Shown piece after piece: positions 45,997 to 63,423 of a stretch of DNA of 64,000 bases; within the stretch, counting starts at the first letter, position 1, and each line of letters opens with the position of its first letter. Location of the stretch: the NCBI GenBank assembly GCA_016708315.1, contig JADJGC010000008.1, forward strand, positions 31,699 to 95,698, given 5' to 3'. The notes beneath the pieces are model-generated. The model searched no databases and was not told the DNA's origin. It saw only the letters and a program-made list of their open reading frames with translations. The translations under genes and the position numbers were made by a program. The DNA comes from a bacterium (GTDB lineage: Bacteria; Zixibacteria; MSB-5A5; CAIYYT01).

Positions 45997-46011
45997 CGAA
46001 TTGTGTTTGGT

Positions 46012-46470: not shown

Positions 46471-46505
46471 TTGGCGGCAGCGTGATTATCGGTTCGCGAT
46501 CCGGT

Positions 46506-49047: not shown

Positions 49048-49092
49048 GCCCCAGTATAAGGCCGTCCGTCTCGGCTTTCGCGAAGAGCCGAC

Positions 49093-49359
49093 TTATTGTT
49101 CGGAGACAAATCGCTTGAGCTTCGGGTCGTCCGTGGGATCGCCGGAAAAGACGGTCTCGCCGTCCACACTGACCGTGAAATGTCCCTGGTCGATGTTGAT
49201 GTAGGCCTCCTTGCCGTTGCTGTGCGCGTAATAGTAGTCCACGCCGCATCTCGTATCAGGCCCGTTCTGAGATTTCCAAGCCTTGGCGCGTGTGCCCGTG
49301 AGGACGGCCAAAAGCCCATTGAAATCATAGGTCACGACTTGGCAGGCGGGTTTATTCAT
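49093..49359 (-). CDS. hypothetical protein
   Basis: 88-aa ORF between the trbC remnant/terminator and virB4. Confidence 0.4.
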   Translation of the reverse strand: MNKPACQVVTYDFNGLLAVLTGTRAKAWKSQNGPDTRCGVDYYYAHSNGKEAYINIDQGHFTVSVDGETVFSGDPTDDPKLKRFVSEQ

Positions 49360-49424
49360 GCGCGTTCGTTTGGCGATTAACTCTTAGACCAGCGGCTGCA
49401 ATCGTAATCTCCTCCAACCTTTCG

Positions 49425-49453
49425 ACAACAAAAAAGCCCCGGCTGTCCGGGGC
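49425..49453 (-). terminator. rho-independent terminator downstream of the trbC 3' remnant
   Basis: Minus strand: gccccgg-acag-ccggggc followed by ttttttgttg. Confidence 0.5.
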
Positions 49454-49479
49454 TCTCGCAATTGCATCCTGCCGCGATC

Positions 49480-49615
49480 TCACTGAGCCGCCCATGCGAG
49501 TATGACCTCGATTATTTTTGGCACGAGAAACAGGCAAACCGCGCCACCGAGGTTCTTACCCATCGCTTCCATGTCTCCGTTTTTGAATTTGATGGCGGCG
49601 ACGCCCATAAACAAG
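49480..49615 (-). repeat. direct repeat copy 1: truncated 3' end of trbC/virB2 pilin gene (about 49 codons, upstream stop in frame)
   Basis: Translates to FAATPLFMGVAAIKFKNGDMEAMGKNLGGAVCLFLVPKIIEVILAWAAQ*, 80-95% nt identity to 62649..62787. Confidence 0.7.
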
Positions 49616-49997
49616 GGTGTTGCGGCAAATTACCTGTTTTCTGGCGAAACAGCTCATTTTCTGGATTTCAGCCGCGCACTCCGCCGACCAATATGATGTT
49701 GGGATCCGAGCTGAGAGCGCTGCGAGTCTTACCAGTCGCGAGGAAACGCCGGGCCGGATAGATGGATAGCGCGCGACGTGTAAGAGGGAAACTCCCCGAT
49801 GCGGGGTTGTTGGCCGCAGGAGGCGAGGGTCGGAATCGCCCAGCGAGGGGAGCTGTTCCGAAACCCGCCTAAACCATTCAGCAGCGGTCACTTCTCTAAA
49901 TGCTGCACTGGTAAGGAGATTATCACTTTCCGGTGATTGAATCAAGCGAACAAAGCGTGACGGACACCAACAATTTGCAACAAGAGCGAACACCTTT

Positions 49998-50033
49998 AGT
50001 GCCCGTTTTGATGCCCGTTTCAGTGCCCGTTTT
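49998..50033. repeat. 3 x 12-bp tandem repeat (agtgcccgtttt / gatgcccgtttc / agtgcccgtttt)
   Basis: Read directly in the roughly 540-bp non-coding tract between the repeat copy and the island. Confidence 0.6.
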
Positions 50034-50154
50034 CGGTTCGGCAATCTGGTCTGCCGGCTGCCCGGACAGGACGAAAATCCGAAGGGGAGAATTTTCGGGT
50101 GGAGCGGCCTGGTCCGGGTCCTGTGATAATCTGGCGGCGCGGTGGATCGAAACC

Positions 50155-52281
50155 TCAATCTGCTGCGAGCATTTTTTTGCAGTGCGGGCATTCAGGGATC
50201 CGGGCCAGAAACGGAGCTGAGGTGGGCGGTAACAAAGGCGCGCACATGTCCGCGCCGAACATGTGCACGGGGTCAAACTTCTCTGGCGTGGCAATCGCGG
50301 CCGAATCGTGTGGAATTATAAAAGCATAATCCCGGTGACAATCACCGCATTTTCGACGGCCCCATTCGGAATCACAGTCCCGGCAGGTCATCATGGCGGC
50401 GTCTTCCTGCTGGTCCACGGAAGTTGATTGGCAGCATGGACAAGATTGGAGGACCTGGAGTCGGTCGCGCACATTAACAAGGCGCTCAAAAATCCCGCTT
50501 ACAACCCTGAGGGTTGCTTCTTCTTTTTGCTCCTGTGCGTTAATCTCCTTTTTTTGAAGGTTTACAGCGGCAAGCAAACGACGGTTATCCCGAACACGGT
50601 GCTCCTCCCGCTTAAGATTTTCCCGTGCGGAATAGGTTTGTTCCAATTGGCGCTTTGCTCTGGTAGCCCGCATTTGCGCTTCTGCGATCAAGGAGTCATC
50701 GGGCGGCACGGAAAATAGAAAATCCTGTTCCACCATGTGGATGCCGTGGCGGTGTGACAATTCGTGCCACACGTCTGCCCAGCCGTTCATTGGCACGCGG
50801 ACCGGAAGACTTGGCCAATCCAGTTCAGCGATCACCCAGCGAATGATACGCGCCACCAATTCGGTGGAGTCAATTTTCAGGGGCGATACTTCCACCCAAA
50901 CCATGTTGTCCGAAAACAAGGCCGAGGACCGAAGTCGTTTGAACTTTTCCACCACTGGATCCGACCAGTCAGCGGCAGTAGCACCAGAATCATCCACGCT
51001 CACGATCAACACTGGATGGCTTTGTTTTTTCATTTCGAGGAAAGTCTGGAAGGCAACATCGACCTGTTTTTCAGATTGCGCTCGCCAGCAGGTGTATAAC
51101 CCAACGATATGCAATTGTGGTTTTCCGTGGCATTCCAAAAGAAGTGAGTAATCGTTCTGGACCAGCAGCGTCCACTGGCGGGCCAAGCTTATTCGCTTTC
51201 CGAGCGCAATGGGTTGATTCGTGTTTTCGGTCGGAATCAGTCCGAGTTGCCGGCACGCGCGGATGGTCAGCAACACCGTGAATAGATTCCAATCCGAACA
51301 CGCCCGCCTTCGATTTGCGGCGCGCTCGGCAGGGGTAGGCGGCTTAACCGAGGCCACGCGTTCCCACATGTGCCACAAATGAAAAGCCTGGCGATAGTGG
51401 GCATCACTTTGAAAGACGTTCGTTGAATGCAATGGACTCTCGACCGCGGCGAAGTGCGGCATCTGCTTGAAGAGAAACGTATCGGCCAGTGCCAGCAGGC
51501 GCGCGCGGGCGGTTTCCAGGTCATGAATGAGTTGGGCGAGACGGTCGCGGCTCGGATGGCTTGAAAAAGCCTCACCCCATAAAATGAAAAGCCGGTCTCG
51601 ACGGAAGCGCGTGCCTTGTGCTGCCTCCGAATGTTCACTTGCTTCATCCAGGGCCTGCAAGATTTGCTGTAATTTCTGGAGTCGTGGATGGAGGACGCCC
51701 AAAATCCGTTTGCGGAGAGTAGCTACGGCGCGGTTTTCATAAATGTCCCATTGGTCTCGCCTTGATTCCGCAAGAATGCGCCTGGGGCGAACCCCAAGGA
51801 AGGTCCGGGTTTGCCAATCCTCCGAGTGGGCGGCGAGCGTCGCCACGGCGCGATGGGAGACCCGTCGCGCACGCCCCACTTCCTCCCGAATTTCCTCAAT
51901 CGTCAGATGACCTCGTGGATTGTGGCTGAGCGTTTCCACATGCGGCAGCGCCTGAATCAAAGCCTGCTCATAGTCGCGCAGGTCCAAGTCTGAGGTGATC
52001 GTTGGGTCCAGCGGAACCAAGCGCGGCCAAGGTTGCAGTTTCCCACCCCAAAGCGGCTCGATCCTGGCGGCGAGATTTCGCAAGCTTTGACAAAGCGTTT
52101 CAGTTGGCTCGCTGCCGGAATCGGGGCGCTCCAAATCCCGCTCCGTTCCCGGCCAAACGTGTCCGTTCCGGACAGATTGCCAAAGCCCCAAGAACGGCAA
52201 TGACTCAGGGGTTGAGCAAGACTGTCCCGTAATCCGGTTGCGCCAGAGTGTTTCCATCAATCGATCAGGTTGCGCCCCCAT
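50155..52281 (-). CDS. McrC-like partner of the McrB-like GTPase (candidate nuclease subunit); Cys-rich C-terminus
   Basis: 708 aa, start overlaps upstream McrB-like gene (operon order mcrB-mcrC); C-terminal CPCC...CRDC...CGDC...CPHC zinc-ribbon-like cluster; PD-(D/E)xK motif not confidently identified by eye. Confidence 0.5.
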   Translation of the reverse strand: MGAQPDRLMETLWRNRITGQSCSTPESLPFLGLWQSVRNGHVWPGTERDLERPDSGSEPTETLCQSLRNLAARIEPLWGGKLQPWPRLVPLDPTITSDLDLRDYEQALIQALPHVETLSHNPRGHLTIEEIREEVGRARRVSHRAVATLAAHSEDWQTRTFLGVRPRRILAESRRDQWDIYENRAVATLRKRILGVLHPRLQKLQQILQALDEASEHSEAAQGTRFRRDRLFILWGEAFSSHPSRDRLAQLIHDLETARARLLALADTFLFKQMPHFAAVESPLHSTNVFQSDAHYRQAFHLWHMWERVASVKPPTPAERAANRRRACSDWNLFTVLLTIRACRQLGLIPTENTNQPIALGKRISLARQWTLLVQNDYSLLLECHGKPQLHIVGLYTCWRAQSEKQVDVAFQTFLEMKKQSHPVLIVSVDDSGATAADWSDPVVEKFKRLRSSALFSDNMVWVEVSPLKIDSTELVARIIRWVIAELDWPSLPVRVPMNGWADVWHELSHRHGIHMVEQDFLFSVPPDDSLIAEAQMRATRAKRQLEQTYSARENLKREEHRVRDNRRLLAAVNLQKKEINAQEQKEEATLRVVSGIFERLVNVRDRLQVLQSCPCCQSTSVDQQEDAAMMTCRDCDSEWGRRKCGDCHRDYAFIIPHDSAAIATPEKFDPVHMFGADMCAPLLPPTSAPFLARIPECPHCKKMLAAD

Positions 52282-54646
52282 TCAAGCGTTTGATTTCCCG
52301 TTCCAGCAACTCGTAACATTTTACCGGTTGGTTAGGCTTATCAAAATTATCCCATTCCTGGATCAAATGGGTTTGGAACTCTTCGAGTTGTTTCGCCCCG
52401 AGATCAAACCTGCCGCGCAGCTTGCGAAGCAATTTGGTCGCAAGGATATGATCTGTGGCTTCACCCAGAGTGCCGCCGGCTTCAATAATAACCGGCACAA
52501 ACCGATTCATCTGGCTTTCGAGCCGATTGCCCCAGCCTAAACCCAGTTTGGCGAGCTGATGAGTGAGTGACTTATCCAAAAAGTTCTTGGCTCGGATAGC
52601 GGCATCCTTATGTGTGTTTACCGCCCGATTAAAGGCTCCATCGATTGCGTCCTGTGTGATCGGGACCGGCGAGTTAAGCGGTCTGGGCACGAAGGCCTCG
52701 GGGTGTCTCGGAAACTCCATCACATGGGAGCGGTCATAGGTTTTGTCGGCGAAATCCTTGGTGGTTTCGTCATGATTGGCCGTGCCGATGAACCAGACGT
52801 TGCGCGGAATGCGCAACCAGCGGGCTTCCTCGAGCAGCTGCGGAGCACCATCAATCCTGGACGTCAGCAGACTGACACGCTGCTTCTCCGGGATTTGTTC
52901 GAGTGCCGACAGGAAATCCGCAAAGTAGTGCTCCGGATGCGATAGATTCATTTCGTCCAAGACAATGAAAAACGGAACGTTCCGGTAGTGAGGCTGTTGG
53001 GCACGATACAGAGCCTGGAGAAACTCCGACTCATAATAACGTTTCTCGAATGCGTTGTAATAGCCCAACAAGTCGTTCCGGTCGCGCCAGCCAGATTGGA
53101 CTTCGACGATAGCCGAGGTGGCGCCGATGGCCCGGGCAAATTCGCGGGGGAGGCTAGTTTTACCAGTGCCGCTGATGCCTTGGAGCAAATGAAGCCGACT
53201 GGTGGCCAGACCGGCAAGAAATGCGCGCACGTCCTTGTCCCGGTAATAAAGTTTTTTCTCGCCTATCCGATTCCGAATCTCGTCCACCAAGTCTTTGAGC
53301 GGCGGCAGTTTCTCGAGCACCCTTGCCGGGGGTGTTTGAAGAGTCGCATCGCCATCCATCTCGATAAGGCTAGGGAAAACGCATTGAGCCTTCGACTTGT
53401 CAACTAGTTCCCCAAGCTCGCGGCGCAAATCCTCGACACAGGAACGTAGGGCGCGTTCGCGGCTATCCCAAGCTGCTTTCTGGTCTCTCAAATTTTGCAT
53501 TTCAGCAACGCCGATGGATAATTTGCTCATCTGGGACTGCAACGATTGGTTATCTTGGAGCAACCGTGCCAAATCCGAATGCAGAGTCTCATTCTCGCTT
53601 TCCAAGCCGATGAGTCGGGCAATCTGATCATCTGCAGGTTTACGGGCCAGTTCCGCCACCAACTTTCCGTGCCGCTCCTGCAACGTGGTCAGTTCAGACA
53701 GCAATTCTTCCCGTGTTTTTCCGGCGGCAACGCGTTCGGTTTCCTCGTAGCGGCTAATCTGCTCGGCAAGCTGTTTGCACCGGGCCAAAGCACTCTGCAA
53801 ACGGCTTTCCCGATCGGTAACCGCTTCCCGGACTTTTTCCTCAATTCTTGAGACCCAGTTGGTCTTAAGTTCTTCCGCCTCCTGCTTGGCCCACTCGGCT
53901 TCACGCTTGGATCGAGCCACTGCCTGTTTTTCCAACTGAAGTTGCTGTCTGCCTTCCTCCACGCCGACCAACTCGCGTTCCCGAATCTGGCGAAGCTCAG
54001 TTTCATATTTCTTTATGCCATCGAGATAACTCTGATGATGCTCGGCAATCTGCTTTGCCAAGGCCTTGGCTTCTTCATCAAGTTTTGCGAGTGCCTGACG
54101 ACGTTGTTGCAAAAATCCAGACTCGGCGTCGATCTCTCGTTCCTTTAGTTTTTCCTCTGACTGGATGATGTCTCTTTCCCGACGGTCCAACCCCGATTTG
54201 CGGTCATCCAATTCGCGCTGGGTCTTGCGCTGTTCATCCTTTTGCTGGCGTAGTTCCTCCTCACGCTTCTGAACCTGTGCGTTATGTTCATGGGCTTCGG
54301 CTTCCCGATTTTTGGCTTGTGCCTCTGCGGCCTCCATGCGGCTTTGGGAACGCTCAAATAGTTGCCGAGCTTCGTGAGCCACTTTCCATAGATTTAGCGG
54401 ATCAATTTCCGACGCGACGGGGGCCAGTGGCGGCATGGGCGGATTGTTGAGATCCTCCTCGGTCAGAAGGTTGGTCGCCTGATTCGAAATTACAGTGATC
54501 TGCGCCACAACTTCCGCAGGAGTGGATGGGCCAGCGGGATTGACAGGTGATGCCGAGGTTCCGGCATTCGCCACCGCCGGCTGCATATTTTGCCGTCTGT
54601 TATTGCGATCTTTTTTGCTCATAGTTTTGAGGCTTTGTCGTTGCAA
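52265..54646 (-). CDS. McrB-like AAA+ GTPase (AAA_5) with about 450-aa N-terminal coiled-coil domain
   Basis: GISGTGKTS Walker A, FFIVLDEMNLSHPE (McrB DEMN Walker B), GTAN...DRS signature; N-terminal half is E/R/K/Q-rich heptad sequence. Confidence 0.8.
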   Translation of the reverse strand: MQRQSLKTMSKKDRNNRRQNMQPAVANAGTSASPVNPAGPSTPAEVVAQITVISNQATNLLTEEDLNNPPMPPLAPVASEIDPLNLWKVAHEARQLFERSQSRMEAAEAQAKNREAEAHEHNAQVQKREEELRQQKDEQRKTQRELDDRKSGLDRRERDIIQSEEKLKEREIDAESGFLQQRRQALAKLDEEAKALAKQIAEHHQSYLDGIKKYETELRQIRERELVGVEEGRQQLQLEKQAVARSKREAEWAKQEAEELKTNWVSRIEEKVREAVTDRESRLQSALARCKQLAEQISRYEETERVAAGKTREELLSELTTLQERHGKLVAELARKPADDQIARLIGLESENETLHSDLARLLQDNQSLQSQMSKLSIGVAEMQNLRDQKAAWDSRERALRSCVEDLRRELGELVDKSKAQCVFPSLIEMDGDATLQTPPARVLEKLPPLKDLVDEIRNRIGEKKLYYRDKDVRAFLAGLATSRLHLLQGISGTGKTSLPREFARAIGATSAIVEVQSGWRDRNDLLGYYNAFEKRYYESEFLQALYRAQQPHYRNVPFFIVLDEMNLSHPEHYFADFLSALEQIPEKQRVSLLTSRIDGAPQLLEEARWLRIPRNVWFIGTANHDETTKDFADKTYDRSHVMEFPRHPEAFVPRPLNSPVPITQDAIDGAFNRAVNTHKDAAIRAKNFLDKSLTHQLAKLGLGWGNRLESQMNRFVPVIIEAGGTLGEATDHILATKLLRKLRGRFDLGAKQLEEFQTHLIQEWDNFDKPNQPVKCYELLEREIKRLNGGAT

Positions 54647-56243
54647 GATTCAGTAGACACCCAGTTGCGTGAATAATCAGCTCCCACATCTCTTCTGCTT
54701 CCGAAATTGAAAAGCGTTTAGGCGAAGGGTTGTGCGAGTCATCATGAGATCCCGCGTTGCCTAGGTCGATTATGCGGGCAAGCTTGCGCAAGAACTCTAC
54801 ATCTTTGGACGCTGCTTTTCTGAGGGGATGGACCGGGTGCAATGATGACGCCAACAAAGTTGCAACCACTGCACTTGGCAATTTGTAAACGTTACCCACA
54901 TCCCGGCATATTCCAATTATGAGGCCTTTGTTTGGCTTTCCGCCCGACTTATCAATCTGAAAAACTCCGGGCAATGGCAGGCGTAATCCAATTGATTGAG
55001 CTATGTGGTCAACGGTTGCCCGGTCAATCGCAACGTCGCCGTTAAGAAGTGCCGGCGCATTACTCAACGATGAAACTCGAGCGATTGACTTCAGCAACGC
55101 TTCAAGCGTCCTTCGACATGATTGCATGACCGAGCCGAGGTCACTCTGAGATTCTCCTTCGGTGGCTCTCGCCAGGGATAAACTTTTGGCCGCTGCCACC
55201 AGGTGCTCAAAAACGGCGGAGGTTGCCTTAATATCGAGGGACAGTCGCGCCACGACCTCGGATTCGGCAATTTTTTGTTGCTGCTCCAACAACTCCTCCA
55301 AGGCCGGAGCATCCTTAATCTGCGCGAATCGCAAAAAATCCCGCTGGGCACCAGCCGCGCCCTCATCGTCTCTAGCTATTCGTTGCAGTTGACGCCACAT
55401 TTTCTCGTCGCACCCAAATCCGAACGGATCACAAATCTGAGGTAGAAATGCGCTCCCTTTGGGCAAGTATCCAAACGTAACCAGCCCGGCTGGCTCGGGC
55501 TGGTCGCTAATCGAAGCGATACGCGCGAGCAATTCAGGTGAATCATCGCCGGCGATTCCCATTATCTCCGATGCATCCAAGCGCATTGATTTTTTCTGTT
55601 CTTCACGACGGCGACACTGCTTTACCGCCCGCAAAATCATGGCGCTGGATGGTTGCACCGGGCTCGCCGGGGCATCGAAGGTCCAAGCAGGAACCTTGCG
55701 TAGCCCCCTTTTTGAATCCAGTGCCAAGTTCAAACGTCCCAGTCCATAGCCTATGGTGGTTTCTTGAAGCTGAAGCTGTTGGCTGAAGTGCGGCCAGAGT
55801 TCGCCGCTCCAGGGGTCTTGGAATACCCAACCGGTGATCAATGTATCTATGATCAATTCTTCTTTTTCAAGGACGTCAAGCCCCTTGGGTGTCGGGCGGA
55901 ATGATTTCTGGTCCACCCAGCCAGAACGGACCAACTCCATGCCGATATTTTCAACCAGGTGAGGATGGAGGTGAAGTTTGGTGGCGATCTCCGCGACCGA
56001 ATATGAATTGCTGCACCACAAACCGAGCACTGCTTTCTGGAGAAGGTTGATGCGTTGGTCTGATGGTGCTGGTGCCACCACCCGCCATGCGGCGCATGGC
56101 CAAACAAGATAGACACGCCCCGTGCGATCATAATCGTGGTGGGCGGCTCGGGGACCGTAATTTAAGACAAGATCCATGGTGTCAGAAAATTGCCCCATGG
56201 CTGCCCCGGCAAAGTTTTTGGAATGCATGGAGGCCGGGGACAT
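54600..56243 (-). CDS. hypothetical island protein (possible wHTH near N-terminus)
   Basis: 547-aa ORF between helicase and McrB-like genes, overlapping both. Confidence 0.5.
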   Translation of the reverse strand: MSPASMHSKNFAGAAMGQFSDTMDLVLNYGPRAAHHDYDRTGRVYLVWPCAAWRVVAPAPSDQRINLLQKAVLGLWCSNSYSVAEIATKLHLHPHLVENIGMELVRSGWVDQKSFRPTPKGLDVLEKEELIIDTLITGWVFQDPWSGELWPHFSQQLQLQETTIGYGLGRLNLALDSKRGLRKVPAWTFDAPASPVQPSSAMILRAVKQCRRREEQKKSMRLDASEIMGIAGDDSPELLARIASISDQPEPAGLVTFGYLPKGSAFLPQICDPFGFGCDEKMWRQLQRIARDDEGAAGAQRDFLRFAQIKDAPALEELLEQQQKIAESEVVARLSLDIKATSAVFEHLVAAAKSLSLARATEGESQSDLGSVMQSCRRTLEALLKSIARVSSLSNAPALLNGDVAIDRATVDHIAQSIGLRLPLPGVFQIDKSGGKPNKGLIIGICRDVGNVYKLPSAVVATLLASSLHPVHPLRKAASKDVEFLRKLARIIDLGNAGSHDDSHNPSPKRFSISEAEEMWELIIHATGCLLNLATTKPQNYEQKRSQ

Positions 56244-57336
56244 ATTGGGAAAATTCGGACGAGGCCATGGCTGAATCTCCGACCGTAATCAATAATCGCT
56301 TTTGGCGACTCATCGCGACACACAGGCGGTTTTCAAGCAATAGATGGCCGAATTTGCGGCGAACACTTTTATCATCGGCGGGTTGAATTCGGTTTGAACG
56401 AGTCAGCGAGAGGATGACAACATCGAATTCCTTGCCTTGAAAGGCATCCACGGTCCCGACGCGAAGACGTTCGCACACTTCGCGTTGAGCGTTGACTGTG
56501 CTGCGCCAGGCATCCGCAATGACCAAATCGTTATCATCCGACAGGGTTGTCAGGTCCACCCGTTGCATTGCGGTCATGATGGCCTTGACCTGCGCGGCAT
56601 AAAAAGAAATGATCCCCACGCTCAACCCGGGAGATTCTTGCAAGATGCGGCGTGTTTCGGCGGCAATCCAATCCGCCTCACAATGCCGAACCCAGCTGTG
56701 GTCGGCGTGTTCCTCTGCACCGTTGTAGATGGGCAGATTCTTCCAAACCGCAAGTTTTCCCTCGTAGCTTCCGCCCAAGCCGTGGGCAAATTGCGGGTTC
56801 AATTCGGCACCATCGGGCGATAGAAACGCCTCACCGTGGTCCTTGTAAAAGGCGTCACTTACAAAAGTGCCCAGCACCGGATGCATCCGGTATTGGGTGT
56901 CCAGCGTGACCCAGCGTTTTATACCGTCTAATTTCTCCAAATCCTTGACGTGGATGAACAGCCGTTCAAACAGGCTCTTACGGATCTGGTCGCGGGTCTC
57001 ATCACGAACAGATTGCTCAAGTTCGCGCTCCACTTCTGGCTCCAAAAGATGGGGCAGTTGCCGGTGATCACCCACCAAAATGATTCGCCGGGCGGCTCGG
57101 CTCAGGGGAATGAGCAAATCAAGGGGATTGGCCCGGGCCGCCTCATCGACAATGACATTCTCAAACTCAAGATCGTCCGAGAGCATTTCCATCATCCGGT
57201 CACTGACCGCCTGCTGACAAGTTGCCGCAAGGACCACCGTGTAATTCTCGACGGTTTTCCGCAACCCGACCGGGTCATTTCGCAGGTCCTGAATCAGTTG
57301 TTCGAGCACCATATCCGGCCCCCTCAGCCGACGCAT
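56182..57336 (-). CDS. Upf1-like SF1 helicase, C-terminal part (motifs II-VI); split from N-terminal part by frameshift
   Basis: IVDEAARANP (motif II), ILVGDHRQLP (III), VDAFQGKEFDVVILSLTRSN (V), CVAMSRQKRLLITVGD (VI). Confidence 0.75.
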   Translation of the reverse strand: MRRLRGPDMVLEQLIQDLRNDPVGLRKTVENYTVVLAATCQQAVSDRMMEMLSDDLEFENVIVDEAARANPLDLLIPLSRAARRIILVGDHRQLPHLLEPEVERELEQSVRDETRDQIRKSLFERLFIHVKDLEKLDGIKRWVTLDTQYRMHPVLGTFVSDAFYKDHGEAFLSPDGAELNPQFAHGLGGSYEGKLAVWKNLPIYNGAEEHADHSWVRHCEADWIAAETRRILQESPGLSVGIISFYAAQVKAIMTAMQRVDLTTLSDDNDLVIADAWRSTVNAQREVCERLRVGTVDAFQGKEFDVVILSLTRSNRIQPADDKSVRRKFGHLLLENRLCVAMSRQKRLLITVGDSAMASSEFSQYVPGLHAFQKLCRGSHGAIF

Positions 57337-59515
57337 TGCGAACGCACTTGTCCAAGGTGGAAATCATCTCATCAAGAACGTTGATGACTTCCGAATTGAC
57401 CAATGGGGTTCGGGAAGGCGGGGTAGATAATTGCAGGGCATCCAACAGCCGATTTTTGACCAATTCCATTGCCGGCAAGAAGTCGGGCGCAGACTCACTA
57501 TCCCAGTCTCTGGCCTTTTCCAAAAGGGCGCGGTCTTCGGCAGTGAGCCAAGAGCCTGATGATAATTGATTGAGAACCCGCCATGCCATCTTCGGCCCGT
57601 CATCGGCGAACGCCTCTTTCTGAATGCGCAGACCACGGACCACCTGGATGGCTGCCTGACACTCGTCGTCCTGACCGGCCACTCCCAGTTTGAGGCGGTC
57701 AGCCACACTGACAATCCGGTCAGACAAATCCGCTGGCAAATGCTCGCCTGCCAACGAACGTAAATCCAACAGCATGCGAGCGGCTTCGGTTTCAGTTCCA
57801 GGAGATTTGACATAGGAGGCATGTCTGATCCGAATTGTTTCCAGCAACTTTCTCAACGGCTTTTTTGGGCTGGCTGCCAAGTCCGCCTCCAAGGCTTCCG
57901 CGATCCGGTTGGTCCAAGCTATCAAGGGCAGACTTTCGGAGTTGTCTCCTCGTCGCCGGCCCACCTTCATCGCCGGAAGGCCGAAAATCTCGGTCATGGC
58001 CGCCGCATTCTCGACCGCATCATGTTGGAAGCTTGTGAGCAACACCTTTTCGAAGTCAGCGTTTTGATCTTTGGCAATTTCAGTAAGGCGCTCGATGATG
58101 GCTGATATGGTGCGGGTCTTGCCGGTGCCGGGTGGCCCTTGAATAACGGCTATATCGGGGGTGTTCAATGCAACCCTGATGGCTTCCACCTGCCGTGGGG
58201 TCGGCGCACCGGAATGAAACCGGGCTTTCGCCGCGCCGGACAACGGTTCGTGCGTCTGCACGCGGCGAACCGGCACTGGCCGGTTTTCAAGCAACAAAGC
58301 CAGTTGTGGAATTGAAGTCTTCCCGCTGGCAATGCGTGAATGCGCCTCGTTTCGGCGTGCCATTCTTTTCAAATCGCCGCGCAAGCTGACATGAATATAA
58401 CCCCGATCTGGTGGCACAACCCCATCTTGGGTATCGGGGCGCAGTCGAATGCTTTGGGTGTCGTTACCAGCCAAAGCGCCACGAAACGCCGGCCGTGATT
58501 CGCGAACCGCTATTTGAAAACTGGGCGTCTCTTCGTCGCCGGCTGGCGTGCTGGTGAGCATATCCGGGACTTCCGCTGATGCCTCCAAATCCTTGTCGGC
58601 GGTGATGCCCTGCCATAGTTGGGAGGGGGTCCATTGGCTATCGGCGGTCAACTGAAAAGACCAGCATCCATCCGGCATTCGATGACAACCATCGTAGCTC
58701 AACCAGCCAAAGCGTTTGGCCTCTTCAACGACACGCCGATGTTCCATCGCCTGGTATTCCAGCCAGACTCCCAAATAACTGCCGGCGGTGCGGACAATCT
58801 GATCGAGTTCCGTTGCCATCCCCTGCCGCATCTTGCCGGCTATGGTCTGATCAACAAATTCAAAGGCCCCTTCGGCAAGAATAACGGGGCGATATTCTTC
58901 CGGTTTGATGGCGGTCTTGGGGCGGGTTAGACGAAATGCCAACCAGCCACCTTCTTTATGCCGTTCGACATCCAGCGCGAATCGGTCACCGAGGATTCGG
59001 AAGGCTTGTTTTTGGCTATGTTGCGAGTCTGGCCGACCAATGATGATTACCCTGGCCAGTCCAGCTGGCGAATTGGGCTGGATGATTAATTTATCGGCGA
59101 GCCAAGCACAGGCGGTTTCGGTTGAGAAACGGCGTGCCTGTTGTCGTCCCATATCGGCCACCAGCTTTTCGTCCACGCCGATTTTTAGCTCAGGAATAGA
59201 AAAGCGTTCCGAGAATTCGTGAATCTGGATGGTCAAAGCGACCAACTGATTGCGGTCAGAGCGCAAACCAACCAACCAACACAACCGGGGAGCATCCTGT
59301 TCAATTGAGCGTTGCAGTTCCCTCCGACTTTTGTGGTCCCTTGCATCAACAACCAATGGTTCGGCTTGGCCCGGAAGAATAAGCGCACACAGGTCGCCAA
59401 CGCGCGTCAGCATCAACTCCCGCCCGTTGGGCGGAATCCGCTCAATTCCGACATCCACCAAGGGGACAACATCAAGCGTCAGAATCTTACCGTGTTGGAG
59501 GTTGGCGATTTCCAT
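57275..59515 (-). CDS. Upf1-like SF1 helicase, N-terminal part (large N-terminal region + Walker A)
   Basis: VIQGPPGTGKTRTISAIIERL; overlaps the C-terminal part by 62 nt in another frame at a C5 run (57319-57323). Confidence 0.75.
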   Translation of the reverse strand: MEIANLQHGKILTLDVVPLVDVGIERIPPNGRELMLTRVGDLCALILPGQAEPLVVDARDHKSRRELQRSIEQDAPRLCWLVGLRSDRNQLVALTIQIHEFSERFSIPELKIGVDEKLVADMGRQQARRFSTETACAWLADKLIIQPNSPAGLARVIIIGRPDSQHSQKQAFRILGDRFALDVERHKEGGWLAFRLTRPKTAIKPEEYRPVILAEGAFEFVDQTIAGKMRQGMATELDQIVRTAGSYLGVWLEYQAMEHRRVVEEAKRFGWLSYDGCHRMPDGCWSFQLTADSQWTPSQLWQGITADKDLEASAEVPDMLTSTPAGDEETPSFQIAVRESRPAFRGALAGNDTQSIRLRPDTQDGVVPPDRGYIHVSLRGDLKRMARRNEAHSRIASGKTSIPQLALLLENRPVPVRRVQTHEPLSGAAKARFHSGAPTPRQVEAIRVALNTPDIAVIQGPPGTGKTRTISAIIERLTEIAKDQNADFEKVLLTSFQHDAVENAAAMTEIFGLPAMKVGRRRGDNSESLPLIAWTNRIAEALEADLAASPKKPLRKLLETIRIRHASYVKSPGTETEAARMLLDLRSLAGEHLPADLSDRIVSVADRLKLGVAGQDDECQAAIQVVRGLRIQKEAFADDGPKMAWRVLNQLSSGSWLTAEDRALLEKARDWDSESAPDFLPAMELVKNRLLDALQLSTPPSRTPLVNSEVINVLDEMISTLDKCVRNASAEGAGYGARTTDSGPAK

Positions 59516-59518
59516 GTG

Positions 59519-60961
59519 TTATGGCATCGGTTTGAAAACGACCGCTCGATGGAGCCTGTCCAGTGGACCAAAGTGCAAATGCCAATGCGGGCTTTGGGAC
59601 GCTATCGGGATTGGTTTTTCGGCGGCGACACCCAGGCTATCAATCGTTTTGTCCTGACCGGTGTGCTTCACCAACAGGAACGATTCCTGAGACAGGTTGC
59701 GCACCCGAATCGAATCAGCCCGGGTGCGAGTGATTTCGACGAGCGGTTGCTCGGTCTGGTCTGATGCATCATCACTGTGAACGTGTCGGCGCAAGATTTG
59801 AACTGATTCTTTAGGTGCCAAAACGATCGTGGCCAAGGAACGACTCTGACTGGTCGAGGTTTTAACGAAGCCGCCTGGTGAAGCTCCGGTGGCAAAAGTA
59901 ATTTCAGGATCCCAAAGATAAACAACCGCCAAGCTTAACTGCGGGCGAGGCTGTCCGCACCACGGGCACTCACGCCTTTGGGGGGCGTAAAATGAAGCCT
60001 GGCAATGCGGACAAGTGATCGTCACGTCGGCCGCCTGACTGAGAGCACTGACCCATTCCCCCAAGCCGGGGCGGGCAAGGCGGTCTTTAAGCCCGTCCTC
60101 GAACATGCGCTTGAAAAGTTTTTTTACCTCCGGGGAAATTACGATGTCTCGGTCAATGCCCCGGGAGGAACGATTTTTCAAATCGGTGGTGTGTTCGATC
60201 CAAGGCATATCACCGCGAAACGCCGCCTCTTCAAGTTCCGGTTCGCCATCGTGGACCAGATTGCCCACGAACGGGTGGACGAGGGTCAGCAATTCAAAGG
60301 CAATCACAGCCAAGGCGAAAGCATCGGTCAAAGTATCCGGCCCCATGTCGCCACGAATCAATTCGGGTGCTCCATATCCAGGGGTAAAAACCCCGGAGGC
60401 GGTAGCATCGCGCTGAACATGTAAATTATCGGCATCAATCAAAAAAGCCCAGGAGTGATTTCCATCGGAGCCAAACAGAATATTCTGCGGTGAGGGATCG
60501 CCGTAAACCAAACCGCGTCCATGCAAGCGGCTGAAGACATCAAAAATGGCCACCAACTTTTGCAACCTTGCCCGCAGTCCCCCAGTGGCCACATACCACG
60601 CGGTCACACTACGACCATCTGCAGGTGGAACCATCATGGCTCGAAGTGATGACATGCCGGCGGCCAATTGCATCAGATAGCCCACATGTGGAGGTCCTAA
60701 TACAGCAATTGGTGAAGCGATGGGCAGTCCAGCCAAGTCCAACCGCTTCACCGCCTGAATGCAACGACGCAGACGCTGCCGCTCACTTTCGCTGACGGAT
60801 CGCAGGAGTTTCACGGCGAGACGGCCTTCCTTGACCTCGAAAACATCCCCTTGACCACCCTGGCCAATCAACTTTGCCAAAGTATAGCGACGGCCTTCGA
60901 GGTCCGTGACCACTTGACCACAGACGGTTGATTGGATGCGGGGTGATGGCATGGCAATCAA
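59519..60961 (-). CDS. Ser/Thr protein kinase with C-terminal zinc ribbon
   Basis: IGQGGQGDVF Gly loop, AVK lysine, LVYGDPSPQNILF catalytic loop, TPGYGAPE; CPHC...CPWC. Confidence 0.8.
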   Translation of the reverse strand: MIAMPSPRIQSTVCGQVVTDLEGRRYTLAKLIGQGGQGDVFEVKEGRLAVKLLRSVSESERQRLRRCIQAVKRLDLAGLPIASPIAVLGPPHVGYLMQLAAGMSSLRAMMVPPADGRSVTAWYVATGGLRARLQKLVAIFDVFSRLHGRGLVYGDPSPQNILFGSDGNHSWAFLIDADNLHVQRDATASGVFTPGYGAPELIRGDMGPDTLTDAFALAVIAFELLTLVHPFVGNLVHDGEPELEEAAFRGDMPWIEHTTDLKNRSSRGIDRDIVISPEVKKLFKRMFEDGLKDRLARPGLGEWVSALSQAADVTITCPHCQASFYAPQRRECPWCGQPRPQLSLAVVYLWDPEITFATGASPGGFVKTSTSQSRSLATIVLAPKESVQILRRHVHSDDASDQTEQPLVEITRTRADSIRVRNLSQESFLLVKHTGQDKTIDSLGVAAEKPIPIASQSPHWHLHFGPLDRLHRAVVFKPMP

Positions 60962-61707
60962 TGACTCAAGATGACGGCAACCGTTTTATCATCGAGATGA
61001 CCTGGCGTTGGCCATTCTCGCAAAGCCCGGCGGAGCGTCGGACCCCTTTCGATACTTGGCTTGCCAGCAATTTCGTTTCGCAACCATTTTATGAACACGT
61101 CCAATTTGTCCGGGCGCAGATCGTCAGCAATTCCGTCGGTCACGAGGACGGCGATCCATGGTTCTTTGGAAAGCGGCAGGCTAACGTGATTCCAGTCGGT
61201 CATCCGGTGGTTCACACCCAGTCCGAGGGTTTCGTTGACAAAATCCCCGGCGGGCCGAGTAGAAAGGCATTGGACCGGTTGTTTTCCCCGTTGGAAAAAG
61301 GCCATGCCGTCGCCCAGCCCCGCATATATTAATCCCGCTTTCGGATGGGCGGCAATTAGATGACAGGTGGTGGCACATTGCTGCGGCGGATGTGGCGCAA
61401 CCGAGAAACGCCATTGCGCTTCAAGCCAGCGACAAACCCATTCCGAGCCGACGTCAGTTGCCTTGGCCCACAACCGAGTGGCTCGAATGGCCGAGGCGCA
61501 TGCGGAGCGCGCTCCGAGTGCGGCAAATGGTTTTGATCCCATGCCGTCCCCGATAGAAATTGCCGCCGCTGGCCCAAACGACCGTCCCCGCCAAACATCC
61601 TCGCAGGGTTTTCCGTTCTTTTTGTGCATAGGGCCACGCACTGATGCCCCAAAAATAATTGGCGCAACAGCGAGCGTAGCACGACCATGCTTAGTAACGG
61701 ATTTCAT
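60958..61707 (-). CDS. PP2C-family Ser/Thr phosphatase
   Basis: CEDVW...SIGDGMG, AGLGDG, VLVTDGIADDL; 4-nt overlap with kinase gene. Confidence 0.8.
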   Translation of the reverse strand: MKSVTKHGRATLAVAPIIFGASVRGPMHKKNGKPCEDVWRGRSFGPAAAISIGDGMGSKPFAALGARSACASAIRATRLWAKATDVGSEWVCRWLEAQWRFSVAPHPPQQCATTCHLIAAHPKAGLIYAGLGDGMAFFQRGKQPVQCLSTRPAGDFVNETLGLGVNHRMTDWNHVSLPLSKEPWIAVLVTDGIADDLRPDKLDVFIKWLRNEIAGKPSIERGPTLRRALREWPTPGHLDDKTVAVILSH

Positions 61708-62365
61708 CTATTTCCAAGGGATCAACCGGGGCAATTTTATCAGGTGTGGCACTCCGACTGCGCACGGTAACGCTCATGGTCACCCACTTGAAAAATTTGT
61801 GAATATCGCGGGCCTGGTGGGCCTGAAACACTTTTGACTCAGGCGCATTGAGGAAACTCTGAAGCATTTGGCCATCGGCGTCCGCACCGATCGCCATGGC
61901 CATACGAGCCGCCTTGGAAGCCCGCGCTGATTCGAGCAACTGTTTCAGGGGCAACTGCCATTCGTCACTCGGCTGCCCGTCTGAAACCAGCACGAGCGTG
62001 GGACGATAAGACCGGGAAGGAACGAGTTTCTTGCCCTCCAACATGACGTGCAGTTGGGTCAGGGTTTGCCCCAACGGGGTGTTGCCCTGAGCAACCAACG
62101 GCTGCCATTTCTTTTTTGCCTCCGCCGCATTCAACAAAGGCAAATGAGCGCGGACATCGCCCCCAAAGGCAATGGCCCCGATTTGGATCATGGCGCGAAC
62201 ATCCGGCTCGGCGGCAAAGGTCGCGAGCATTTCCTCAACGGCCCGATTCAGCGCTTCAATCTTGCCGTTTTCCGCCATGCTCCCGCTGGCGTCGAGGAGA
62301 AGAAAAACAGGGAGAGGGCGGGCTTGATCGACCGTGAACTCCTTGAGTGTGATTTCGTTCTTCAT
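61691..62365 (-). CDS. vWA domain protein (TerY-like)
   Basis: MIDAS LLLDASGSM, LVLVSDGQPSD; start at MKNEITL (ATG 62365). Confidence 0.75.
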   Translation of the reverse strand: MKNEITLKEFTVDQARPLPVFLLLDASGSMAENGKIEALNRAVEEMLATFAAEPDVRAMIQIGAIAFGGDVRAHLPLLNAAEAKKKWQPLVAQGNTPLGQTLTQLHVMLEGKKLVPSRSYRPTLVLVSDGQPSDEWQLPLKQLLESARASKAARMAMAIGADADGQMLQSFLNAPESKVFQAHQARDIHKFFKWVTMSVTVRSRSATPDKIAPVDPLEIDEIRY

Positions 62366-62648
62366 GAACACATGGTAACCAAAACTGTGAGTCAGCCGCA
62401 ACGAGCGAGTCAGCTTGGAAGCGACAGCGGATGTGAAACGCTGTGGAAGTGGGTTCACGGGCTGCGACCGATAGAAAGAGTGTTCCGGCCGCCACGAGCG
62501 GAGCGGGCAGAAAGTGATGAACTACGGGCAAAGCTCGAAGCGTTACCGTCGGCTGACAAAGCGGACGGGGTACCATTCAGCCGACGCATTTATCTCCGCC
62601 GCAGCGGATATTGCGAAGCTTTGTGCCGTGCATCCGTCGCTTCCGGCG

Positions 62649-62787
62649 TTACTGCGCTGCCCAAGCCATGATAACCTCCACGATTTTCGGTACGAGGAAC
62701 AAACAGACAGCGCCGCCGAGGTTCTTGCCCATCGCTTCCATGTCTCCGTTCTTGAATTTGATCGAAGCAATACCCATAAAAATCACT
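62649..62787 (-). repeat. direct repeat copy 2 (intact 3' end of trbC)
   Basis: Aligned by eye to 49480..49615, core about 60 nt about 95% identical. Confidence 0.7.
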
Positions 62788-63029
62788 CCAAGGAGATAGA
62801 AGACGTACAGAGCGTACTTCGCCACGGAACGGAGCGTGGCCGTGAGTCCCGTGCTTTCATTGGCGGCGTCCTGGAAGTCTCCCGTGCCGAGTCCTCCGCC
62901 AATATCCGAAGAGTCGCCCGCCCCGGTGCTCTGGGCCAGGACCAGGCGCGGGCTGCCCAGCAGCGTGAGAACGAACAGGCCCACCATGAGTTTTGCGATC
63001 AGATGTTTCATAACGGTAATCGTTGTCAT
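62649..63029 (-). CDS. TrbC/VirB2-family T4SS pilin
   Basis: Signal peptide + two hydrophobic segments, 126 aa; its 3' end is direct repeat copy 2. Confidence 0.6.
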   Translation of the reverse strand: MTTITVMKHLIAKLMVGLFVLTLLGSPRLVLAQSTGAGDSSDIGGGLGTGDFQDAANESTGLTATLRSVAKYALYVFYLLGVIFMGIASIKFKNGDMEAMGKNLGGAVCLFLVPKIVEVIMAWAAQ

Positions 63030-63120
63030 TTTGTCTCCGGCCCTGTTTGGCTTCGCCGCCAGGCCCGTTTCTCCATTCTAGGTTTCGCCCAGTGGGTCCT
63101 CTACCTGTCGCTCGCTTTTT

Positions 63121-63423
63121 CTATATGTGCCCCTGATCCTGGCCAAAGCGTTCGGGGAAGAATTGGATCAAGATTCGGCACAAGCATCCGAGCGTGCAGT
63201 AACAGGAAAACACGATGAACGCCAGGATGCGGACGGCGGCGCGCAGCTTCGGCGCCTGGGCGATGTCGATGAACTCGGTGATGTAAGGATGCCAGGCGAT
63301 GGCCACGCCGGCCAGAAAGAGCAGGCTTGCGAAAACGCTCAACACGATCGCGTTGATGGATGGAAACGGTCGGGCGAGCCAGTTCATGACGGCAACAAGA
63401 ACGTCTCTCATAGCCTCATCCAC
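63121..63423 (-). CDS. small membrane protein
   Basis: Two or three hydrophobic helices. Confidence 0.4.
   Translation of the reverse strand: MDEAMRDVLVAVMNWLARPFPSINAIVLSVFASLLFLAGVAIAWHPYITEFIDIAQAPKLRAAVRILAFIVFSCYCTLGCLCRILIQFFPERFGQDQGHI

What the first reader, a model, noticed from the sequence alone, without database searches (positions are those of the whole stretch)
49425..62787. Island is bracketed by direct repeats made from the 3' end of the trbC pilin gene, inside a T4SS operon
A roughly 135-bp segment at 49480..49615 is a diverged copy of the last roughly 45 codons of the TrbC/VirB2 pilin gene at 62649..63029. It shares the core FKNGDMEAMGKNLGGAVCLFLVPKI and has an in-frame stop just upstream, so it is a remnant. 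A terminator lies beside the remnant (49425..49453). The roughly 13-kb defence cargo sits between the two copies, separating trbC from the downstream virB4-like gene. This looks like site-specific integration into the 3' end of a protein-coding gene, with the insert bringing a replacement 3' end. No integrase or recombinase is visible inside the island.
Basis: seen in the sequence. Interest (0 to 1): 0.75.

Follow-up and report, generated by a model that had tools for sequence, protein, structure and literature searches.

The report
Cargo island inserted in pilin gene end
A 13-kb anti-phage defence island sits inside the last 132 bases of the pilus-subunit gene of a large conjugative element and brings its own copy of that gene end, and it is one of over a hundred such insertions found in peat and soil metagenomes, which suggests a cargo-stacking system not described in the sources searched.

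Summary
The last 132 nt of the pilin-like gene (Ra, 62649-62780, minus strand) recur at 49480-49611 (Rb) at 79.5% nt identity. Stops lie in frame upstream of Rb, and a terminator follows it.

Related elements (L137, L139/L140) carry the empty site: pilin, terminator, 88-aa ORF, VirB4. Window homology to them ends at the pilin stop codon and resumes exactly at the first base of Rb. The insert is therefore 62648..49612 (13,037 bp).

Ra looks imported. The closest relative, L136, is 94.6% identical in the pilin 5' part but only 84.5% in R (Fisher p=0.002). Ra and Rb differ mostly synonymously (21 synonymous, 5 nonsynonymous).

The island carries a vWA/PP2C/kinase triad, a Mokosh-like system and a PDC-M26-like system. 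It has no recombinase.

Its distal end carries a conserved about 23-nt junction motif (J). J+R junctions occur at 126 sites, sometimes twice per contig in one orientation. R co-varies with downstream DNA, and most breakpoints fall within TTTATGGG.

Best reading: Campbell-type, probably site-specific, accretion of islands that lack their own integrase. It resembles cis-mobilizable elements (CIMEs). The recombinase is unidentified. This is a new variant of a known kind.

The parts
62649..63029 (-). Pilin-like gene (126 aa): signal peptide plus helical hairpin. It is kept intact by the island-borne 3' end.
   Evidence: Translation. AF2 model with helices 61-94 and 97-125. Lies upstream of the 88-aa ORF and VirB4 in relatives. 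No Pfam, NCBIfam, PHROG or PDB-sequence hit.
62649..62780 (-). Ra: the 132-nt pilin 3' end now in use, inferred to have been brought by the island (attL side).
   Evidence: 84.5% identical to R of L136, against 94.6% for the adjoining 240 nt (p=0.002). Closest known relative is R of L153/L154 at 91.9%.
49612..62648 (-). Inserted island, 13,037 bp, with G+C 0.52-0.56 against 0.58-0.60 in the backbone.
   Evidence: Boundaries from blastn against empty sites L137, L139 and L140. Composition.
61691..62458 (-). vWA-domain protein (TerY-like).
   Evidence: PF00092 5.6e-11. Weak PADLOC TerY hit.
60958..61707 (-). PP2C phosphatase.
   Evidence: PF13672 2e-28.
59519..60961 (-). Ser/Thr protein kinase.
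   Evidence: PF00069 4.4e-14. PADLOC PD-T4-6 and mad6 kinase models.
56182..59515 (-). MkoA-like SF1 helicase, split into two overlapping ORFs (57275-59515 and 56182-57336).
   Evidence: PADLOC MkoA 6.5e-22 and 5.7e-68, covering consecutive parts of the model. AAA_11 and AAA_12.
54600..56243 (-). MkoB-like protein.
   Evidence: PADLOC MkoB 3.4e-9.
52265..54646 (-). AAA ATPase, PDC-M26A-like.
   Evidence: PADLOC PDC-M26A 1.4e-51. AAA_5.
50155..52281 (-). 708-aa protein of unknown function.
   Evidence: No hit in Pfam, NCBIfam, PADLOC, PHROGs or PDB sequences.
49612..50154 (-). Distal end of the island, probably non-coding. It holds three 12-bp tandem repeats at 49995-50033. The 211-aa ORF 49556-50191 runs into Rb in another frame and is probably not a gene.
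   Evidence: Repeats. ORF list. No family hit for the 211-aa ORF.
49612..49634 (-). J: junction motif GGTAATTTGCCGCAACACCCTTG, abutting TTTATGGG of Rb.
   Evidence: Same motif class precedes the sites that have enough upstream DNA (123 scored). Main form GATAATCGCCGCCACCCCCTTC. Near-identical form in L101. Third variant in L153.
49480..49611 (-). Rb: the displaced native pilin 3' end (attR side).
   Evidence: Collinear with R, terminator and downstream genes of the empty sites from its first base. In-frame stops upstream.
49425..49457 (-). Native intrinsic terminator of the pilin gene.
   Evidence: Terminator scan. Conserved after the pilin stop in L137 and L139.
49093..49359 (-). 88-aa ORF in the VirB3 position, first backbone gene after the site.
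   Evidence: Called as an 88-aa gene in L001, L137 and L139. No Pfam hit.
46506..49047 (-). VirB4/TraC-like ATPase, split by one extra G at about 47758.
   Evidence: TIGR02746 1e-58 and P-loop_TraG 4.5e-26. Alignment to intact 847-aa genes.

Best explanation
The 13,037-bp segment 62648..49612 is a cargo island that lacks its own integrase. It entered the pilin-like gene of a large self-replicating conjugative element by a Campbell-type single crossover. The two partners were the gene's own last 132 nt (R) and a diverged copy of R carried by the island next to a conserved junction motif (J), so the incoming circle read J|R-cargo.

The product is: pilin 5' part, island R (Ra, now the working gene end), nine defence-type genes, J, native R (Rb), then the native terminator and the rest of the T4SS genes.

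I think the crossover is site-specific, within or next to the invariant octamer TTTATGGG at the start of R. I think it is catalysed in trans by a recombinase not encoded in the island. The best candidate is a divergent pair of tandem tyrosine recombinases found directly after R in two related cassettes.

Repeating the event stacks islands behind the pilin gene. Each older island is preceded by J plus the R copy that earlier served as the gene end.

What is shown: the duplication, the exact insert boundaries, the empty site, the foreign origin of Ra, the J+R family and its arrays, and the covariation of R with downstream DNA. What is inferred: a circular intermediate, site-specificity, the identity of the recombinase, and read-through expression of the cargo from the pilin promoter.
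For: Empty sites and exact boundaries.

Foreign origin of Ra: Ra and Rb differ by 21 synonymous and 5 nonsynonymous changes, so they diverged as working gene ends in separate lineages rather than by in-situ duplication. The identity discontinuity against L136 has p=0.002, with no comparable drop in the other nine pairs.

J is conserved while both flanks are unrelated, giving 30 upstream and 46 downstream clusters. Three contigs carry two sites in the same orientation (L016, L103, L132).

Breakpoints: pairs with 100% identical upstream DNA have R only 82-87% identical, with the first differences at +9 to +17. Pairs with identical downstream DNA mostly have identical R. L153 and L101 are 96.6% identical from the first base of R onward but have different J and upstream DNA.

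Other support: the same cassette lies behind different neighbours (L103 and L106 compared with L044). The roughly 115-bp module before R carries 9-bp direct repeats and two palindromes, as attP arms do. Tyrosine recombinase pairs start 218-268 bp after R in L026/L027 and L115 (PF02899 at 25 bits; phrog_1 at 2e-15 and 2e-19). Island G+C is lower than the backbone.
Against: No recombinase was found in the island or in the 64-kb window ORFs scanned.

The recombinase-pair family also occurs without any R nearby (L141-L152), so its link to R rests on two cassettes.

Two comparisons place a breakpoint inside R. L103_4929 and L044 are identical only from +66, and L016b and L060 only diverge from +44. 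Window Ra shares its first roughly 26 nt with L136. This fits homologous exchange or later gene conversion.

No circular contig or excised form was seen.

Other islands at this locus lack any R duplication. L001 replaces a 42-bp spacer, and L011 has an extra insert after the 88-aa ORF. So not all cargo arrives by this route.

VirB4 and the MkoA-like gene are each frameshifted, so this copy may be decaying and no longer mobile.
Confidence: 0.6

Rival explanations
1. The same Campbell-type insertion occurs, but by homologous recombination. R is a portable 132-nt homology patch, and host RecA or the element's own recombination and repair genes cross it with the pilin gene. J is conserved for some other reason.
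For: Internal breakpoints at +44 and +66, and an apparently chimeric Ra. No recombinase in the island or window. The backbone encodes SbcCD-like proteins, a 5'-3' exonuclease and helicases.
Against: R copies are only 79-90% identical, which makes them poor substrates for homologous recombination. Most informative breakpoints lie within the first 8-17 nt of R. A roughly 115-bp module with repeats and palindromes is conserved next to R across unrelated cargo, and simple homology does not need it.
Confidence: 0.22
2. J+R units are working small genes ('mini-pilins' with their own start, a rebuilt first membrane helix AIIAATPFF, a loop and a second helix) that sit in cargo regions. The window copy is a decayed one. 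The duplication is a by-product, not an attachment scar.
For: Database ORFs of 69-173 aa read from a conserved M(E/G)N(G/E)HLLENP start through J into R. J encodes hydrophobic residues in frame with R.
Against: Only 8 of 118 sites keep an open frame from that start. Three of the roughly 8 distinct short units have a stop at codon 18. In the window Rb is collinear with the native gene end, terminator and backbone of the empty sites, so it is the displaced gene end. The window's J is out of frame with stops.
Confidence: 0.05
3. Silent partial pilin copies serve for pilin variation, as in pilE/pilS gene conversion or shufflons. Rb would be a donor cassette used to change the pilin C-terminus.
For: A promoterless 3' partial copy lies near an expressed pilin gene, and R copies show mosaicism suggestive of gene conversion.
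Against: Ra and Rb differ at only 4 of 43 residues, all conservative and within the membrane helices. The copies are direct repeats separated by unrelated cargo. No invertase or Rci-like gene was found. Empty sites have no spare copy.
Confidence: 0.03
4. The insertion is mediated by a relaxase or HUH endonuclease. J, a short palindrome followed about 12 nt later by the joint, would act like an oriT nick region, and the element's relaxase would join the cassette to a nick-like sequence in the pilin gene.
For: J contains GGCGAT-A-ATCGCC followed by the joint 12 nt downstream. The host is a conjugative element. No classical recombinase was found.
Against: No relaxase or HUH gene was identified in the window. 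This mechanism does not explain why the island carries a full 132-nt gene end. The palindrome is only imperfectly kept in the window-type J.
Confidence: 0.05

Closest known systems
Genomic islands, IMEs and prophages that integrate into the 3' end of a protein-coding gene and carry a replacement end (reviewed for IMEs in PMC5704250; from my own knowledge: e14 and phage 21 in icd, SGI1 in trmE, SCCmec in rlmH, ICESt1 and ICESt3 in fda)
   Same: Direct repeats made of the gene end flank the insert. The gene stays intact. The displaced end lies at the far side. Relatives carry the empty site.
   Different: The target is the pilus-subunit gene of a conjugative element, not a chromosomal housekeeping gene. 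The repeat is long (132 nt) and diverged (79.5%). The island has no integrase. The insert separates the pilin gene from its terminator and from the rest of the T4SS genes.
[quoted passage not shown]
   Same: An element with attL- and attR-like ends but no integration or transfer genes. [quoted passage not shown]
   Different: Cis-mobilisation is not shown. An integrase-bearing partner is seen in only two cassettes (L026/L027 and L115). The platform is itself a mobile element.
IMEs that integrate into conserved genes or the oriT of ICEs (traG/VirD4, SNF2 and Maff2 genes of Tn5252-type ICEs; oriT nick site of Tn916 and ICESt3; PMC5704250)
   Same: Mobile islands that use a conserved conjugation-module sequence of another mobile element as their landing site, and so ride with it.
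   Different: Those with serine recombinases disrupt the target gene, whereas here the gene is restored. The phyla and recombinases differ. No relaxase or oriT was identified in this island.
Integrons and their cassette arrays
   Same: Directional stacking of unrelated cargo behind a fixed site. The units lack their own recombinase and are separated by a conserved recombination-site-like repeat.
   Different: No IntI, attI or attC. The units are multi-gene (kilobases) with genes on both strands in relatives. The repeat includes a functional gene end.
Variable-region hotspots of SXT/R391 and other ICEs or plasmids (own knowledge)
   Same: Defence and resistance cargo sits at fixed positions between conserved conjugation genes. 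Related elements carry different cargo at the same place (L001, L136, L011).
   Different: Those hotspots are intergenic and thought to exchange by homologous recombination. Here the insert lies inside the coding sequence, with a duplicated gene end and a conserved junction motif.

Membership tests
Integrative island at the 3' end of a protein-coding gene (tyrosine-recombinase type) | [quoted passage not shown] | tested here: met
   Ra 62649-62780 and Rb 49480-49611 are 79.5% identical in nt.
Integrative island at the 3' end of a protein-coding gene (tyrosine-recombinase type) | Relatives carry an empty site with a single copy of the repeat. | tested here: met
   L137, L139 and L140. Homology breaks fall at 62649 and 49611.
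Integrative island at the 3' end of a protein-coding gene (tyrosine-recombinase type) | The target reading frame is preserved by an element-borne gene end. | tested here: met
   The 126-aa ORF is intact. R is discordant with the 5' part against L136, p=0.002. R co-varies with downstream DNA.
Integrative island at the 3' end of a protein-coding gene (tyrosine-recombinase type) | An integrase gene lies at one end of the island. | tested here: not met
   No recombinase hit among the nine island ORFs in Pfam, NCBIfam, PADLOC or PHROGs. An HMM of the R-linked integrase family finds nothing in the window.
Integrative island at the 3' end of a protein-coding gene (tyrosine-recombinase type) | The crossover falls in a fixed short core. 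| tested here: inconclusive
   Most breakpoints lie within TTTATGGG or the next 8-17 nt, but two lie at +44 and +66.
CIME (cis-mobilizable element) | Retains attL and attR but lacks integration and transfer genes. | tested here: met
   Repeats are present and no recombinase or transfer gene lies in 49612-62648.
CIME (cis-mobilizable element) | Excises or moves together with an integrase-bearing element accreted at the same site. | not testable with these tools
   Only static contigs are available. Tandem arrays occur, and integrase-bearing cassettes occur in L026 and L115.
Integron or CALIN | IntI integrase with attI and Pc. | tested here: not met
   No integrase in the window.
Integron or CALIN | Single-ORF, co-oriented cassettes ending in attC imperfect palindromes. 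| tested here: not met
   Units are multi-gene and carry genes on both strands in relatives. The repeat is J plus a 132-nt gene end, not attC. No Rfam hit.
VirB2/TrbC/TraA conjugative pilins | Match to a pilin profile (for example Pfam TrbC) or to a solved pilin. | tested here: not met
   No hit in Pfam (up to E=5), NCBIfam, PHROGs or PDB sequences. None of the 120 listed of 135 homologues carries a pilin Pfam domain.
VirB2/TrbC/TraA conjugative pilins | Small protein with a signal peptide and a two-helix hydrophobic hairpin, encoded just upstream of virB3 and virB4. | tested here: met
   AF2 helices 2-24, 61-94 and 97-125. Gene order in the empty sites. The Foldseek search was uninformative.
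Pilin variation systems (pilE/pilS, shufflon) | Stored partial copies encode different exposed sequences. Inverted repeats or a dedicated recombinase are present. | tested here: not met
   4 conservative differences in 43 aa. The copies are direct repeats. No invertase was found.
Mokosh, TerY-P-like triad, PDC-M26 (the cargo) | Match to the system's component models. | tested here: inconclusive
   MkoA 5.7e-68 and 6.5e-22 (gene split), MkoB 3.4e-9, PDC-M26A 1.4e-51, and vWA, PP2C and kinase domains. Completeness and function were not assessed.

The most novel reading that the evidence does not exclude
The pilin gene end plus the J module may be the landing pad of an undescribed, integron-like gene-capture platform. 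It would be carried by large conjugative elements of uncultured peat and soil bacteria, seen in metagenome-assembled genomes (MAGs) labelled Verrucomicrobiota, Acidobacteriota and Thiobacillaceae. Multi-gene cassettes without their own recombinase would be stacked directionally behind the most highly expressed T4SS gene. Each cassette in turn donates the working C-terminus of the pilin. A trans-acting recombinase, possibly the divergent tandem tyrosine recombinase pair, would move them among elements.
Probability: 0.35. Interest if true: 0.8.

Novelty: new variant of a known kind. Interest (0 to 1): 0.6.

Why it matters
If this reading is right, conjugative elements can collect cargo by a route other than intergenic hotspots or transposons. 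Islands would dock inside an essential transfer gene and pay for the insertion by supplying a new gene end.

That arrangement ties the cargo, here three defence-type systems, to an element that spreads itself. It may place the cargo under the pilin promoter. It also leaves a readable stack of former gene ends that records the order of acquisitions.

The J+R motif gives a simple sequence handle for finding such cargo in metagenomes. One degenerate pattern found 107 stretches in a single scan.

The case also shows how cargo islands without an integrase can be recognised when no recombinase is in sight. It explains a set of misannotated database ORFs that fuse unrelated N-termini to a pilin C-terminus.

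Tried and rejected
- **Public plasmids and viruses.** Megablast of both flanks against PLSDB plasmids found nothing. An R-core pattern in IMG/VR found nothing.
- **Window source.** The exact-sequence look-up of a window protein, meant to extend beyond the window, found no record.
- **Pilin family.** Profile, PDB-sequence and Foldseek tests gave no hit or were uninformative.
- **RNA.** I found no Rfam family reaching gathering score and no tRNA or tmRNA near the junctions or the post-R motif.
- **Mini-pilin gene.** Rejected as the main explanation because of recurrent in-frame stops.
- **A second pilin paralogue.** Rejected.
- **Recombinase next to the sites.** Clustering all ORFs within 6 kb of 126 sites gave only a MacB/HlyD/TolC efflux module as a recurrent family, apart from the tyrosine recombinase pair in two cassettes.
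- **The integrase family.** It turned out not to be consistently linked to R.
- **Circular forms.** No contig had terminal overlaps.
- **Longer pilin matches.** Apparent matches of L042, L056, L110 and L133 to more of the pilin were spurious.
- **dif/Xer-like site.** Considered by eye only and not seen.
- **Literature.** Searches found no description of pilin-gene-end insertion.

Full report
**1. The observation**

All genes in this part of the window are on the minus strand. The 126-aa ORF 63029..62649 has a signal-peptide-like N-terminus and two hydrophobic helices. Its last 43 codons and stop (Ra, 62780..62649) recur at 49611..49480 (Rb). Nucleotide identity is 79.5%, and 39 of 43 residues are identical.

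A tblastn of the pilin against the whole 64-kb window finds only these two copies (E 3e-30 and 1e-24). The next hit has E 0.3.

Similarity starts abruptly at TTTATGGG (codons F84-M-G). Upstream of Rb the sequence is unrelated to the pilin 5' part, and in-frame stops lie 6 and 15 codons before FMG.

A terminator-like hairpin with a T run follows Rb at 49457..49432.

Nine co-oriented ORFs lie between the copies:
- a vWA domain protein, a PP2C phosphatase and a Ser/Thr kinase;
- an MkoA-like helicase split into two ORFs, and an MkoB-like protein;
- a PDC-M26A-like AAA ATPase;
- a 708-aa protein with no family hit, and a doubtful 211-aa ORF.

None of the nine hits a recombinase model. Downstream lie an 88-aa ORF and a VirB4/TraC-like ATPase.

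**2. The empty site**

Homologues of the pilin-like protein exist only in metagenomes and metagenome-assembled genomes (MAGs).

Three contigs carry the backbone with nothing inserted. They are L137 (GCA_900696445.1) and L139/L140 (Logan assemblies). Their gene order is pilin, about 25 nt, terminator, 88-aa ORF, intact 847-aa VirB4, a 154-158-aa ORF, PolA-like polymerase, helicase.

Against them the window aligns as 64000..62649, ending at the pilin stop, and as 49611..40001, starting at the first base of Rb (alignment). R is therefore single in the empty site and double in the window. The insert is 62648..49612, or 13,037 bp. Its G+C (0.52-0.56) is below that of the backbone (0.58-0.60).

The terminator next to Rb is the pilin gene's native terminator.

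**3. Which copy is native**

Rb is collinear with the backbone. Ra appears imported.

The closest relative, L136 (92.6% identical backbone), has a different insert after its pilin stop. Between the window and L136, the 240 nt before R are 94.6% identical but R is only 84.5% identical (Fisher p=0.002). In the nine other pairs, R shows no comparable drop relative to the 5' part.

Ra and Rb differ by 21 synonymous and 5 nonsynonymous changes. They therefore diverged while each served as a working gene end in a different lineage, not by in-situ duplication and decay. The nearest known relative of Ra (91.9%) is an R copy in L153/L154 that precedes quite different cargo.

**4. A family of such junctions**

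Many database 'proteins' that match only the pilin C-terminus are fusions. An unrelated N-terminus joins through a conserved stretch, AIIAATPFFMG, to R.

At DNA level, every remnant is preceded by a conserved motif, J. Its main form is GATAATCGCCGCCACCCCCTTC. The window and L101 have (G/A)GT(A/T)ATTTGCCGCAACNCCCTTG, and L153 has a third variant.

A degenerate J+R pattern found 107 stretches in JGI metagenomes, mostly from peat and bog. Together with the genome scan, the session holds 126 sites. Nearly all start at pilin residue 84.

The flanks fall into 30 upstream and 46 downstream clusters. Three contigs carry two sites in the same orientation, 2.4 to 8.6 kb apart (L016, L103, L132).

In the best-sampled lineage, the conserved unit before R is about 115 bp. 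It holds two 9-bp direct repeats (ATGGAGAAT) and two palindromes (CTGGCGCCAG and GGCGAT-A-ATCGCC). In a longer form it reaches 436 bp. Both forms have sharp outer ends.

**5. Where the exchange happens**

Pairs with 100% identical DNA upstream of the site but unrelated DNA downstream have R only 82-87% identical. Their first differences fall at +9 to +17 (L103/L104, L057/L126, L125/L044).

Pairs with identical downstream DNA but different upstream DNA mostly have identical R (L097/L125). L153 and L101 are 96.6% identical from the first base of R for 1.3 kb, yet differ completely in J and upstream.

So R travels with the DNA that follows it, J and its module travel with the DNA that precedes them, and the joint lies within or next to TTTATGGG. 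This is what Campbell-type integration of a circle reading J|R-cargo into pilin-5'|R predicts. It also implies that each internal R in an array was once the working gene end.

There are exceptions. L103_4929 and L044 share sequence only from +66. L016b and L060 diverge from +44. Window Ra shares its first roughly 26 nt with L136. These point to some homologous exchange or gene conversion among R copies.

**6. The recombinase**

None was found in the island or in the window ORFs scanned. An HMM of the candidate family finds nothing in the window.

In two independent cassettes (L026/L027, and L115 at 62% identity), a 405-aa protein and a paralogue of about 330-347 aa start 218-268 bp after R. 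The hits are PF02899 at 25 bits, phrog_1 'integrase' at 2e-15 and 2e-19, and a C-terminal HS...RYLH motif. The IME review lists such tandem pairs as 'Tyr duo' (PMC5704250).

The same family also occurs as trios without R nearby, so the link is suggestive only. No other recombinase recurs within 6 kb of the sites.

**7. Rivals**

- **Homologous recombination through R** explains the internal breakpoints. It does not explain the clustering at TTTATGGG, the low identity of R copies, or the conserved module.
- **A 'mini-pilin' gene.** J+R, read from a conserved M(E/G)N..LLENP start, does form ORFs of 69-173 aa. But only 8 of 118 sites keep the frame open, and stops recur at codon 18. In the window, Rb is plainly the displaced native end.
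- **Pilin variation by silent copies** is unlikely. Ra and Rb differ at only four residues, all conservative substitutions.
- **A relaxase-type mechanism** is a long shot.
- **Known RNAs.** No Rfam family or tRNA explains the conserved sequences.

**8. Context**

The backbone encodes:
- a PolA-like polymerase, a beta clamp, a 5'-3' exonuclease, RNase HII and helicases;
- a sigma-70 factor and SbcCD-like proteins;
- a secretin, and PilB-like and VirB11-like ATPases.

(All.) It is a large self-replicating conjugative element, or part of one.

The region between the pilin gene and VirB4 is a general cargo hotspot. L001 has 6 kb (ArsR, CobW, MIP, ECF sigma) replacing a 42-bp spacer with no R duplication. 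L011 has a further insert after the 88-aa ORF. So the J+R route is one of several into this region.

'TrbC' is not supported by any profile. The protein belongs to an orphan family, and its pilin role rests on topology and gene order.

**9. Comparison and novelty**

Integration into the 3' end of a gene with a replacement end, integrase-less CIMEs, and tandem accretion are all established (PMC5704250). So are IMEs that target conserved genes or the oriT of ICEs.

What differs here is fourfold. The target is the pilus-subunit gene of a conjugative element. The repeat is long and diverged. J and its module are conserved. And the family is large, in uncultured bacteria.

The literature searches found no description of this. 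I rate it a new variant of a known kind.

**10. Verdict**

The structure and its origin by insertion are secure (about 0.9). The full mechanistic statement, site-specific and trans-catalysed, stands at about 0.6. Interest is 0.6.

Noticed in passing
window 46506-49047 (about 47758): The VirB4/TraC-like gene is split into 465-aa and 416-aa ORFs by a single extra G, relative to the intact 847-aa genes of L001, L137 and L139. This is either a real pseudogene, meaning a decaying transfer system, or a sequencing error.
   Followed up: partly
window 56182-59515: The MkoA-like helicase is split into two ORFs that overlap by 62 nt in different frames. Consecutive parts of the PADLOC MkoA models match the two halves, so a frameshift is likely.
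   Followed up: no
L023 10046-10318; L115, L077, L134 equivalent positions: Within the 436-bp module before R in the sister lineage, a segment of about 273 bp (-342..-70) occurs in either orientation in different contigs. It is deleted in L016b, L060 and L098 and duplicated in L059. This may be an invertible or otherwise mobile sub-element.
   Followed up: partly
L016 10133-10190 and about 20 other downstream clusters: A conserved motif of about 50 nt directly follows the R stop codon: CGGATCCCTGGGCGAAGGCGGACCGGAATCGAAACGCCGGTTCAATTCCGC. It contains a T-loop-like GGTTCAATTCC. ARAGORN and Rfam find nothing. It is absent from the window.
   Followed up: partly
window 49995-50033: Three tandem 12-bp repeats (minus strand AAACGGGCAC/T...) lie in the 543-bp, probably non-coding, island end. 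They could be protein-binding sites.
   Followed up: no
L001 10365-16347; L011 12520-17670: Other cargo at the same locus arrived differently. L001 replaces the 42-bp spacer between the pilin stop and the terminator, with no R duplication. L011 has a 5-kb insert between the 88-aa ORF and VirB4.
   Followed up: partly
L137 and L001 (both GCA_900696445.1): One assembly holds two related elements, one with the empty site and one with 6 kb of metal- and stress-type cargo.
   Followed up: no
L141-L148, L151-L152: The R-linked integrase family also occurs as three consecutive genes (281/285, 409/413 and 341/348 aa). The 409/413-aa and 341/348-aa products match the integrase HMM; the 281/285-aa one was not tested. 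No pilin remnant lies nearby. The layout resembles the 'recombinase in trio' arrangement.
   Followed up: partly
window 1-46000: The backbone carries its own replication and transcription genes (PolA-like, beta clamp, 5'-3' exonuclease, RNase HII, DinG-like and SNF2-like helicases, sigma-70). It also has a secretin, a PilB-like ATPase and prepilin-type proteins beside the T4SS genes. It has no megablast match in PLSDB, and an R-core pattern finds nothing in IMG/VR.
   Followed up: partly
proteins P0062, P0064, P0090, P0104, P0110: Public gene calls fuse unrelated N-termini (aldo/keto reductase, thermolysin-like, riboflavin-synthase-like) to the pilin C-terminus, or name the 69-aa J+R ORF 'LrgA-like'. 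These are annotation artefacts of the junctions.
   Followed up: partly
L012, L013 (P0062, P0068/P0075): A few remnants start earlier in the pilin (residue 68 or 76) and lack J. Truncation there occurred by some other event.
   Followed up: no
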